Assembly (NCBI RefSeq): GCF_006345805.1
Contig: NC_043020.1
Location: 23,188,001 to 23,252,000 of the forward strand
DNA: 64,000 nucleotides
Direction of reading: 5' to 3'
From: Octopus sinensis
Lineage: Eukaryota
Shown here in pieces: positions 39,304 through 41,928 of the stretch. The translations under genes and the position numbers were made by a program. Each line of letters begins with the position of its first letter. The first letter of the stretch is position 1. The notes below the pieces were generated by a model. That model was not told the origin of the DNA. It made no database searches and worked only from the letters and a program-made list of their open reading frames with translations.

Positions 39304-41928
39304 GTGTGACCGGATCAGAAAGTAAAGGTTCTACCCGGATGGCTGGGTGTCCGTCCTTCGACATGATCATTAATATTTTTAAACATTGCCTTCGTAAAAT
39401 TCATTGTTTATAATCTTATCCGTAATTTCATTCGAAAATTGTAACTGTTAAGCTACTTCACCCTTTATATTTGTCTGTCCTTGTTTGTCCCCTCTTTGTA
39501 AATGCCTAAATGGCAAATTATATGAAATAAAGTAGCTTGTTTACCAACCACATGGTTCCGTGTTCAGTCCCACTGCGTGGTACCTTGGGCAAGTGTCTTC
39601 TACTATAGCCGCAGGCCGACCAATGCCTTGTGAGTGGATTTGGTAGACGGAAACTGAAAAGAAGCCCGTCGTATATATGTATATATATATGCGTGTGTGT
39701 GTTTGTGTGTCTGTGTTTGTGTGTCTGTGTTTGTTTCCCTAGCATTGCTTGACAACCGATGCTGGTGTGTTTATGTCCCCGTTACTTAGCGGTTCGGCAA
39801 AAGAGACCGATAGAATAAGTACTGGGCTTACATAGAATAAGTTCCGGGGTCGAGTTACTCGATTAAAGGCGGTGCTCCAGCATAGGCGCAGTTAAATGAC
39901 TGAAACAAGTAAAAGAGTATAAGAGAGTTGAGAAGAAATATGCGTTTTGGTAGGTTTGTGACAATTCTGAATATGTTTATATATTATTAAACATCTTAAG
40001 CTAAGCATAGTTTAACACTTGTCGGCATAATATTGGTAACTGGAGAGAAAATAGGAGTTTAGTGAATGCACACAGACTGGCGTGATAAATTTTAAAAAGT
40101 GACGGAGGAAAATTCTCAAGTGTTTCTATGGCATAGAAAAGTAGTTTTAAATTGGCTGCTAACACATTTGATTTGGAGACAAAAGTAATTTTTAATTAAT
40201 ATGAATGACCCAGTTAAAAGAAACGAGAAAAAGAATTACATTATCAATCCTGATCACGAAAGGTATGAGGGGTAACTTCAGCATTTAAGTTAATTAATTT
40301 TAATTTAATATAGAAAGCAATGATAAATGAGAGTTTTCACCGCAGATCTCTGTTGTTAATTAGTTAAAATTACACAAATTAACATTTGCATTGAATATAA
40401 TACAGTTAACTAATTCGTAATATTGCAATTAACCTTATCAATGAATTTATACTTCTTCTTAATAAGGTCTTAATAATCAATTCATTAGAATAAAACCTTG
40501 CCAAATAAAAAGGAGACCCTTAAATTACCATATTAAAGAAAATAATCCCAGGTAATGGCCTATAATTAGGAGCTCCCTGGGATCCCAAATATCTGTAAAA
40601 TTATATTTCAAGGTGTCAGCCCCAAATTTCTTGAGCAAAATTATGTATTTACATCATATTTTGCATACAGATGCAATTTTAAATAATCAATTTTCTCTGC
40701 TTCACTAAATTCTTTATGTTATTAATTATATATTTAATTATGTTATCATGTCCACTATTATCAATTCCATACATGCAAACGAAGTCGCTAATGATAATTC
40801 CTGCTTTAGTTAGCTTACATAACTCTGTTGATCCTATCATAACTACCACAATCACATGTAATTTCGTAAGCAATAAGTATCCAATTAAAATAAGGTGCTG
40901 TAATTATTTAATGTATGTTTATTTAGTGTACCGGGCTAAATCAAAATCCCCCAATCGATTCTGAAAATGTGTTAGTACATACATATCCTGAAATAAACTA
41001 CCATGAAATAATTATAGTTACAAGACCAGCAAGAAATAGCAACTAAATCACATACTGCCTTAAAAAGGAAGATATATATTGAATAATATCCTGATCTGAA
41101 ATGATTGAACGAAGAGTGGGACGGTCGTGGTAGGAAAGCCTTTGGTTATATCTCTGTTGAATCAGGGCTCACTTTGGAGAAAAAAATCATCAAAAAGGAG
41201 AAAACAAACAAGCAACTTAAAGCTCCATGGGCTCATCAAACGAAACATGCTCGTTCGGCGTAAGTAACGGAATGGTGGGATTTCAAAATCATTCCTAGAA
41301 ATGGGGATGCTATTGGTCAAGGCAGAAGATTTTAGTTACTAGCCAGAATCAAATGAAATAGCTAAATAGTAAATGAAAATATATATTAGACATTTACTCG
41401 AAACTTATCACATTTTATCATTTTGGCAATATTCAGCGCTATTCTGTGCTAAATATTTCTTTCTTCTAGAAACAAAAGACCTGAACAGTTTTAGGAGAGA
41501 GGGATAGATGATTATATCGAACGCGTGCACGCGCAGGAGTGGCTGTGTGGTAAGTAGCTTGCTTACCAGCCACATGGTTCCGGGTTCTTCTACTAGTAGT
41601 GTCTTCTACTATAGCCTCGGGCCGACCAAAGCCTTGTGAGTGGATTCGGTAGACGGAAACTGAAAGAAGTTCGTTGTATATATGTATATATATATATATA
41701 TATATATGAGTGGGTGTGTATGTGTGTGTCTGTGTTTGTCTCCCCAAACATCGCTTGGCAACAAAGTCTGAAATTTTGTGTGGGGAGGGGGCCAGTCGAT
41801 TACATCGATCCCTGTGTTCAACTGGTACTTATTTCGTCGACCCCGAAGAGATGAAATGTAAAACAGACCGCAACGGGATTGAACTAAAGATCCACGAGAA
41901 ATGCCGTAATATATTGTGTCCAACGTTA

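What the first reader, a model, noticed from the sequence alone, without database searches (positions are those of the whole stretch)
39468..39529. The Tx1 3'UTR shares its end with the SINE-A alternative tail
Seen: the full Tx1 ends TTTGTCTGTCCTTGTTTGTCCCCTCT...GCCTAAATGGC...GAAATA. Its first 21 nt are identical to the SINE tail at ~53660. The (ATCT)n-inserted Tx1 ends GCCCTGTGTGGCTAATAAAGAAAC and the deleted Tx1 at 517 ends GGGCAATAAAGAAAT. All share a small GCC/GGC-type hairpin end plus an A-rich GAAA terminus. Inference: Tx1 is the partner LINE and the hairpin is its RT recognition signal. L1-group elements are usually regarded as poly(A)-recognising, so a stringent Tx1-SINE pair would be notable.
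Basis: partly seen in the sequence, partly recalled or inferred. Interest (0 to 1): 0.8.

Follow-up and report, generated by a model that had tools for sequence, protein, structure and literature searches.

The report
Octopus SINE borrows a Tx1 tail
A very common short jumping element in this octopus-like genome ends in a roughly 65-base tail matching the ends of a group of site-specific long jumping elements and shares one exact landing site with one family of them, so it was likely copied by that family's enzyme and not by the neighbouring element first proposed.

Summary
The 21-nt match is real (39470-39490 = 53660-53680). It is 26 nt against another SINE subfamily and is inherited in the Tx1-A lineage, so it is not low-complexity noise. 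It covers only the first half of the SINE tail. The last 35 nt (hairpin and terminus) match a different family, Tx1-C/C3 (32/35), represented in the window by the deleted copy at 517-1341. Tx1-C ends sit at one site inside the SINE's own head (29/30). About 43% of alt-tail SINE copies sit at that same site, and the two have similar ages (~90% pairwise). Tx1-A is younger, targets a different SINE, and no alt-tail SINE sits at its exact junction genome-wide. The Tx1-like families sampled end without poly(A), in a 4-bp stem-loop with compensatory pairs between lineages; folding support is moderate. Dispersed SINE copies have 10-23 bp TSDs. Verdict: a tail-sharing, probably stringent Tx1-like LINE/SINE pair, with Tx1-C the likelier partner and a tail that looks chimeric. 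Tx1-clade membership and RT recognition are inferred, not tested. This scan reported similar pairs before on other DNA of this and other genomes. New variant of a known kind.

The parts
34151..39529 (+). Tx1-A, full-length Tx1-like LINE: ORF1 (gag-like, CCHC knuckle) from about 34540, ORF2 (APE-RT-zf) 35932-39303, broken here by frameshifts and stops, 3'UTR 39304-39529
   Evidence: open-frame relative L191 has EN, RT and zf-RVT, and zf-CCHC in ORF1; best PDB match human L1 ORF2p E 2.5e-65 vs R2 6e-20
34113..34150 (+). 5' part of the SINE-B head; 34136-34150 is the upstream copy of the target sequence
39530..39670 (+). downstream copy of the target and the rest of the SINE-B copy split by Tx1-A
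39450..39458 (+). 9-nt 3'UTR motif that is the reverse complement of the Tx1-A landing site (39530-39538)
   Evidence: predicted 10-bp helix with read-through; motif variant tracks site variant
39470..39495 (+). segment shared with the first half of the SINE-A alternative tail; kept in older Tx1-A-lineage copies L351 and L359
   Evidence: thousand-fold jump in summed contig depth over 39466-39501 in four public runs
39503..39515 (+). Tx1-A terminal 4-bp stem with 5-nt loop; no poly(A) follows
   Evidence: (pair probabilities 0.89-0.99)
53115..53890 (+). SINE-A array: head, three 184-bp units with the alternative tail (ending 53349, 53533, 53717), last unit with the main tail; each unit restarts at site T1 in the head
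53653..53717 (+). SINE-A alternative tail: first half like Tx1-A, last 35 nt like Tx1-C/C3; stem 53693-53696 with 53702-53705
517..1341 (-). internally deleted Tx1-C copy (5'UTR, part of ORF1, last ~16 nt of the tail), inserted at site T1 between an alt-tail SINE-A copy (1587-1357) and a SINE-A remainder (516-440)
7070..9403 (-). 5'-truncated Tx1-B LINE inserted in an (ATCT)n repeat; same type of terminal stem-loop; 5' limit approximate

Best explanation
The SINE-A alternative tail is homologous to the 3' ends of this genome's Tx1-like LINEs, matches the Tx1-C lineage at its terminus and shares that lineage's landing site, and was likely copied by Tx1-C-type ORF2 protein, which would recognise a predicted terminal stem-loop instead of poly(A). 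Shown: tail homology, shared site T1 in the SINE's own head, long TSDs, no poly(A), similar ages. Inferred steps: (1) a tRNA-headed SINE gained a Tx1 3' end by template switching; the first half resembles the Tx1-A lineage and the second half the Tx1-C lineage, so the tail is either a chimera joined at the motif they share or comes from an older family with both halves; (2) ORF2 binds the two-part stem-loop; (3) its endonuclease nicks site T1, or looser look-alike sites when acting in trans; (4) because the SINE RNA is homologous to the DNA upstream of T1, the cDNA can anneal there, which gives seamless 184-bp arrays. Tx1-A is a relative and probable donor of half the tail, not the mobiliser.
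For: Last 35 nt of the SINE tail vs C3 copy L343: 32/35 identical, same loop (alignment); distal-half scores C/C3 43-58, C2 36-48, Tx1-A 14. Tx1-C ends: 29 of 30 at T1, the 30th at T1 after a 5-nt terminal slip of a kind also seen in 2 SINE copies; 25 of 30 have an ORF2 C-terminus upstream. Tx1-C 5' ends: 24 of 28 at T1 by rule, 3 more show the site at the edge of the stretch read. Alt-tail SINEs: 50 of 117 at T1 (after dropping one row that was a Tx1-C end). L037 shows a full-length SINE in T1 with a 15-bp TSD and a Tx1-C at the same site. Dispersed monomers: TSD of 10-23 bp in 43 of 65 vs 3% of mismatched flanks; poly(A) in 0 of 65. Pairwise identity: alt-tail subfamilies 90-95%, Tx1-C 90.6%, top Tx1-A copies 98.7%. 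Adjacent array units are about as different as random units (median 90.6% vs 88.3%; 5 of 54 at 98% or more). ORF1-only elements with unrelated UTRs keep the A-type end and the SINE-B site (28 of 30 A-type ends at the site, of 959 genome-wide), as expected if the end is required in trans.
Against: No family with the whole tail was found. Tx1-C is small (32 exact ends; 252-336 candidates) beside 83,580 exact SINE tails. More than half of the alt-tail copies are not at T1 although Tx1-C is almost always there. Tx1-B, B2 and G ends also score 31-44 on the distal half. RNAalifold finds only 2 consensus pairs (-0.05 kcal/mol), and the hairpin is not the minimum-energy fold in several copies, including SINE copy L115. 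12 of the 29 aligned ends were found with a pattern that contains the stem. Some T1 units may have spread as ready-made dimers. No RNA ends were seen and no assay was done.
Confidence: 0.62

Rival explanations
1. The tail is Tx1-derived, but the main partner is an unsampled or extinct sister family carrying both halves, or several Tx1-like families share the job, each giving one class of landing site (T1, the second head site T2, (TA)n, dispersed).
For: First half matches Tx1-A and second half Tx1-C. SINE subfamilies differ in sites: one has 9 of 11 junctions of the T1 type, another 6 of 37, with 12 at T2 and 9 in (TA)n. Tx1-C is low-copy. Only the best 40 candidates per DNA search were scored.
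Against: Two exclusion patterns (1,410 and 5,411 hits) showed no recurrent non-SINE upstream among the 100 listed each (by eye); 30 of 30 loci were SINE bodies. These exact patterns would also have missed C2/C3, so their power is low.
Confidence: 0.24
2. Tx1-A, the element at 39.5 kb, is the partner LINE.
For: 21-26 nt identity, kept in relatives at about 75-81% ORF2 identity; same last six bases; 35 alt-tail SINEs lie in the SINE-B target region.
Against: 0 at the exact Tx1-A junction. The 35 are offset by 3 nt, are 0.04% of tails, and fit the SINE's general junction preference (my estimate). Hairpin and terminus score at background level. Tx1-A targets SINE-B and its top copies are younger (these were chosen for likeness to the query).
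Confidence: 0.05
3. The alt tail is a passive passenger: one Tx1 end was once captured at T1, and arrays spread by tandem duplication or as multimers through the main tail and another LINE.
For: Arrays usually end in the main tail; most T1 units belong to one subfamily (37 of 51); 5 of 54 adjacent pairs are near-identical.
Against: Monomers that end in the alt tail carry their own 10-23 bp TSDs (43 of 65); main-tail copies are older (80% pairwise); most adjacent units are as different as random ones.
Confidence: 0.08
4. The match is chance similarity of low-complexity pyrimidine/G repeats.
For: The first half is a short imperfect duplication; 0-3 of 11,197 background windows scored as high as the LINE ends and were not inspected.
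Against: z 11-22 against dinucleotide shuffles; control repeat ends score 10-15; reversed-pattern controls give 0 hits; the match is terminal, collinear and comes with a shared site.
Confidence: 0.01

Closest known systems
SINEU with Tx1-Mar LINEs, crocodilians (Kojima 2015, PMC4494074; passages and section 16 read)
   Same: SINE assigned to a Tx1-type partner by a shared target inside another mobile element; tandem stacking; similar ages.
   Different: SINEU ends in poly(A) and no LINE sharing the SINEU-1 3' end was found; the target is a Mariner. Here the tail sequence is shared, there is no poly(A), and the target is the SINE's own head.
Maize ZmSINE2/3 with LINE1-1_ZM; Chlamydomonas SINEX-3_CR with L1-1_CR (Ohshima 2012 PMC3472496, passages; Ohshima 2013 PMC3747384, passages and section 7)
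   Same: L1-group LINE with a conserved 3' hairpin shared with a SINE, read as stringent recognition; these were the only 3 L1-tailed SINEs of 58 pairs.
   Different: Plants and algae; the algal pair ends in poly(A); no target specificity described in the passages read. This case is an animal, target-specific and without poly(A).
Stringent L2/CR1/RTE SINE-LINE pairs, e.g. ZfL2 and UnaL2 stem-loops (Hayashi 2014, PMC4176376, passages)
   Same: Short 3' stem-loop as the presumed ORF2 binding site; SINE borrows the LINE tail.
   Different: Other clades; shown by assay there, only inferred here.
MetaSINE and CORE SINE tail swapping; octopus OK/OR1/OR2 SINEs (PMC4824008 passages and section 9; PMC4758252 passages; the 1994 paper not seen)
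   Same: One SINE body with exchangeable tails.
   Different: Partner LINEs of MetaSINEs were unknown in that paper. Whether SINE-A is a MetaSINE or one of OK/OR1/OR2 is recalled resemblance, not tested.
HAL1 and other ORF1-only non-autonomous LINEs (PMC5786205, passages)
   Same: The ORF1-only elements at the SINE-B site keep the A-type end.
   Different: Here they are target-specific and stacked in tandem.

Membership tests
L1 group of non-LTR retrotransposons | ORF2 with APE endonuclease, RT and C-terminal zinc knuckle, closest to L1 ORF2p | tested here: met
   Pfam EN, RVT_1, zf-RVT; human L1 ORF2p E 2.5e-65 vs R2 6e-20; the PDB search returned only L1 and R2 proteins, so other clades were not compared
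Tx1 clade | RT phylogeny grouping with named Tx1 elements | not tested
   No named Tx1 reference among 120 listed homologs; the tree has no such reference
Tx1 clade | ORF1 with CCHC knuckle (feature recalled) | tested here: met
   zf-CCHC E 2e-05 in L191 ORF1
Tx1 clade | target-sequence preference (PMC4494074) | tested here: met
   Tx1-A in SINE-B, Tx1-B in (ATCT)n (29 of 30 by eye), Tx1-C in SINE-A
Stringent SINE-LINE pair | shared 3'-terminal sequence | tested here: met
   32/35 with C3; 26 nt with Tx1-A
Stringent SINE-LINE pair | conserved stem-loop with compensatory changes | tested here: inconclusive
   87% of cells paired, 10 double changes, 0/500 shuffles; homologous 4/4 stem in 26 of 29 ends vs 8.6% in shuffles; but related rows, 12 rows selected on the stem, and RNAalifold gives 2 pairs
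Stringent SINE-LINE pair | ORF2 requires the tail for retrotransposition | not testable with these tools
   needs an assay
Stringent SINE-LINE pair | overlapping activity and shared integration signature | tested here: met
   about 90% pairwise identity for both; same site, same TSD start, same terminal slip
tRNA-derived SINE (MetaSINE-like) | tRNA head with A and B boxes; Meta domain | tested here: inconclusive
   ARAGORN 0 genes, Rfam no tRNA match; no Meta consensus available to compare; short, non-coding, TSD-flanked, over 83,000 copies
SINEU/Tx1-Mar type | snRNA head and poly(A) tail | tested here: not met
   no Rfam snRNA match; poly(A) in 0 of 65

The most novel reading that the evidence does not exclude
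These octopod Tx1-like LINEs and their passengers use a two-part RNA code at the 3' end: a stem-loop that recruits ORF2 and an upstream motif complementary to the landing site that helps choose or open the target (RNA-assisted targeting by an APE-type LINE). SINE-A built a chimeric tail from two Tx1 lineages, and one subfamily evolved its own complement to its junction, so that it inserts into its own promoter and regenerates transcribable arrays.
Probability: 0.2. Interest if true: 0.85.

Novelty: new variant of a known kind. Interest (0 to 1): 0.62.

Why it matters
A 2012 survey counted only 3 L1-tailed SINEs among 58 pairs, all in plants and algae, and the one Tx1-SINE partnership I found in print (SINEU) rests on shared targets, without a shared tail. 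An animal L1-group radiation with a poly(A)-free, structured, conserved 3' end, with SINE and ORF1-only passengers that keep it, bears on whether poly(A) recognition by mammalian L1 is derived from stringent recognition. It also offers natural swap experiments: sister families with about 50-60% ORF2 identity, different targets and different stems. It explains the 184-bp SINE arrays that are very common in this genome.

Tried and rejected
Tx1-A as mobiliser: rejected. A LINE with the whole SINE tail: sought by two exclusion patterns and by scanning loci for ORF2 C-termini; not found, low power. L105/L141, a candidate LINE end, was a SINE. Partner of the main tail: 71 main-tail ends, 66 with SINE body by rule and the other 5 truncated or degenerate by eye; no partner found; its score against the alt tail is at background (14) although it has a similar small hairpin. 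RNAalifold on the MAFFT alignment gave 2 pairs; MAFFT puts the C-type stems one column out of register. Rfam and ARAGORN found no tRNA in the SINE head. The ESM Atlas gave only CCHC-type clusters for ORF1 and no clade name. Expression: no RNA holder on record; all runs were contigs, so RNA ends could not be seen. 3' ends of CR1, RTE, L2 and R4 families of this genome were not compared directly. Literature: searches found no Tx1-SINE pair with a shared tail and no octopus case; Repbase entries, Ohshima and Okada 1994, Kojima and Fujiwara 2004 and all supplements were not seen and may bear on novelty.

Full report
Setting. The window lies in G000 (2.72 Gb). The closest named homolog of the LINE's RT region is an Argonauta hians protein at 63%, so the host is probably an octopod (inference). 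Names used here: Tx1-A = the element at 34151-39529; Tx1-B = the element ending at 7070 (minus); Tx1-C = the family of the deleted copy at 517-1341 (minus), with older subfamilies C2 and C3; SINE-A = the repeat forming the array at 53115-53890; SINE-B = the repeat split by Tx1-A; T1 = the site in the SINE-A head where array units restart (53350, 53534, 53718); T2 = a second site nearer the start of that head.

The observation. 39470-39490 equals 53660-53680 (21 nt). Against a copy of another SINE subfamily the identity is 26 nt. In four public contig sets the summed depth over 39466-39501 is thousands of times that of the flanks, and one loose end continues into the SINE hairpin. All 30 fetched Tx1-A copies carry the segment, and relatives L351 and L359 (81% and 75% ORF2 identity) keep it with one or two changes while their upstream UTR has diverged. 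It is therefore an inherited feature of the Tx1-A lineage. Scores for the last 70 nt are 50-55 (z 11-13; 0 of 300 shuffles), control repeat ends score 10-15, and the 99.9th background percentile is 28-30. 0-3 of 11,197 background windows scored as high as the LINE ends; they were not inspected and may be degenerate SINE copies.

The match stops before the hairpin. Splitting the SINE tail in two, the first half scores 47-52 with Tx1-A and 15-21 with the C group; the last 36 nt score 14 with Tx1-A, 53-58 with C3, 43-53 with C, 36-48 with C2, 31-41 with B/B2 and 34-44 with a single-copy family G. C3 copy L343 agrees with the SINE in 32 of the last 35 nt, loop included (counted on the sequences). 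By eye, the C-group end also aligns weakly with the start of the SINE tail if the SINE's 10-nt duplication is gapped.

Targets. Tx1-A: 27 of 30 copies run straight into the SINE-B body, two more sit at the same motif with another junction, one at a look-alike site; two 5'-truncated copies show 16-17 bp TSDs. Tx1-B: 29 of 30 in (ATCT)n-like repeats by eye. Tx1-C: 32 exact ends genome-wide, 30 fetched with a pattern that contains no target letters; 29 are at T1 and the 30th is at T1 after a 5-nt slip; 25 have an ORF2 C-terminus upstream. 5' ends: 24 of 28 at T1 by rule. Alt-tail SINEs: 83,580 exact matches, reversed control 0. Of 118 tails from loci not chosen on their downstream flank, one was a Tx1-C end; of the other 117, 50 are at T1, 2 at T1 after a slip, 11 at T2, 12 in (TA)n, 1 in SINE-B and 41 dispersed. 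L037 holds a full-length SINE in T1 with a 15-bp TSD, followed by a Tx1-C at the same site. Genome-wide, 0 alt-tail SINEs sit at the exact Tx1-A junction and 35 sit 3 nt upstream of it; by my rough estimate that is what the SINE's general junction preference would give. Dispersed monomers with an intact head have 10-23 bp TSDs in 43 of 65 cases (3% for mismatched flanks) and no poly(A), so the alt tail is a working 3' end.

Ages and relationships. Median pairwise identity is 90.0-95.3% for three alt-tail subfamilies, 80% for main-tail copies, 90.6% for 22 Tx1-C ends, 86-88% for C2/C3 UTRs and 98.7% for Tx1-A (the Tx1-A set is the best 30 of 835 candidates, so biased young). On about 200 C-terminal ORF2 residues, A, B and the C group are about 50-60% identical; the A lineage (99/99) and the C group (100/100) are separate clades within one clade that includes the Argonauta protein (two rows with under 100 aligned residues left out; rows anchored on the A query).

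Structure. Single-sequence folds give a two-part stem for C, C2, C3, B, G and two of three SINE copies: a lower stem between a conserved pyrimidine-rich motif and the A-rich terminus, and a 4-bp upper stem with a 5-6 nt loop. Tx1-A folds similarly (upper pairs 0.89-0.99). L349, L351, two of three ORF1-only ends, family H and SINE copy L115 prefer other folds, and L359 keeps a shorter stem with no pair above 0.5. On the MAFFT alignment of 29 ends, 87% of cells pair and 10 cells change on both sides (0 of 500 shuffles), but RNAalifold keeps 2 pairs because C-type stems are shifted by one column. Searching the register freely, 28 of 29 ends have a 4/4 stem, 26 of them the homologous one, against 8.6% in shuffles: the outer pair is U-A in the A lineage, A-U in B and G-C or G-U in C and the SINE; the second is G-C versus C-G; the third is U-A in one copy. 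Limits: the rows are related, and 12 were found with a pattern that contains the stem. Covariation amounts to a few independent events.

Other evidence that the end is read in trans. The SINE-B site hosts many ~2-kb elements with an ORF1 related to Tx1-A's (37% identity) and no ORF2 match upstream (0 of 25 rows for family A2 within 1.6 kb), often stacked in tandem. They have unrelated UTRs but the A-type end. A-type ends number 959; 28 of 30 sampled are at the SINE-B site; 4 of these 30 had ORF2 upstream.

39450-39458 is the reverse complement of the Tx1-A landing site and is predicted to form a 10-bp helix with read-through RNA. Among A-type ends, one motif variant goes with one site variant in 6 of 6 and the other in 47 of 49; 22 ends lack the motif and use both sites. 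One young SINE-A subfamily has a perfect complement to its own junction and 9 of 11 junctions of that type, against 6 of 37 for another subfamily. These counts follow lineages and are not independent. No such motif was seen in Tx1-B, and in the C3 copy folded with read-through the predicted pairing was different. In 7 of 11 full-length Tx1-A copies the upstream copy of the target differs from the downstream one, with recurring variants, which suggests that the 5' flank is copied from RNA that starts in the host SINE head.

Mechanism. Shown: homology, shared site, TSDs, no poly(A), overlapping ages. Inferred: tail capture by template switch, ORF2 binding to the stem-loop, nicking at T1 or at looser sites in trans, and 5' joining by annealing to the homologous upstream head, giving seamless 184-bp units. 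Adjacent units are about as different as random ones (median 90.6% vs 88.3%, 54 pairs, about ten of them not like-for-like; 5 pairs at 98% or more), so serial insertion dominates and some tandem duplication also occurs. Against a simple one-to-one pair: Tx1-C is small, half of the SINE copies are off T1, and no family has the whole tail.

Comparison with what is known. Kojima 2015 (PMC4494074; passages, section 16) assigns SINEU to Tx1-Mar by shared target; SINEU has poly(A) and no LINE sharing the SINEU-1 3' end was found. Ohshima 2012 and 2013 (PMC3472496 passages; PMC3747384 passages, section 7) list 3 L1-tailed SINEs of 58, in maize and Chlamydomonas, with a conserved hairpin in maize. Hayashi 2014 (PMC4176376, passages) shows stem-loop recognition for L2; its 'TX1' is a mutant name. 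PMC4824008, PMC4758252, PMC5786205, PMC13282606 and PMC12988792, read as passages or one section, give context on SINE tail swapping, HAL1 and octopus repeats and mention no such pair. Nine searches found none; subscription papers, Repbase and supplements were not seen. Earlier notes of this scan describe like pairs on other DNA; they are not independent evidence.

Verdict. Observation partly confirmed; interpretation right about a Tx1-type tail and likely stringency, wrong about which family. New variant of a known kind; interest 0.62.

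Noticed in passing
window 34113-39670; L001-L030, L187-L198: Tx1-A is a young family (835 candidates, top 40 at 98-100%) that inserts at one site in the SINE-B head; L191 has open ORF1 and ORF2 frames.
   Followed up: yes
L272-L306, L347-L376: A radiation of ~2-kb ORF1-only (HAL1-like) elements stacks in tandem at the SINE-B site and keeps the Tx1-A-type end.
   Followed up: partly
window 39450-39458: The Tx1-A 3'UTR holds the reverse complement of its landing site; variants of the motif track variants of the site across A-type families.
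   Followed up: partly
window 53838-53890 and other main-tail copies: The older main tail of SINE-A has a small hairpin with the same 5-nt loop as the alt tail but swapped stem pairs; its partner LINE was not found; 7 of 71 copies sit at head site T2.
   Followed up: partly
L077, L078, L385, L388, L390-L392: A further Tx1-like family (E) follows Tx1-C directly at a variant of site T1; its 3' end was not seen.
   Followed up: partly
L155:450-690 and L075:512-950: Two more LINE ends of this group (G; H in an (ATT)n repeat), each seen once.
   Followed up: no
window 39520-39529, 7070-7080, 53706-53717: B-, C- and SINE-type ends carry a canonical poly(A)-signal hexamer only about 5 nt from the terminus; cleavage 10-30 nt downstream would fall inside the target, which could explain read-through ends without poly(A).
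   Followed up: no
window 6123-6207: Two SINE-A copies meet in opposite orientation here, a truncated head on the minus strand against a plus-strand array.
   Followed up: no
window 4208-4921 (+): A frame with a weak Pfam ABC2_membrane_2 match (E 1.6e-06); probably low-complexity or an exon fragment.
   Followed up: no
window 49078-50028: Near-identical direct and inverted copies of 87-145 bp close together; possible assembly artefact or young foldback.
   Followed up: no
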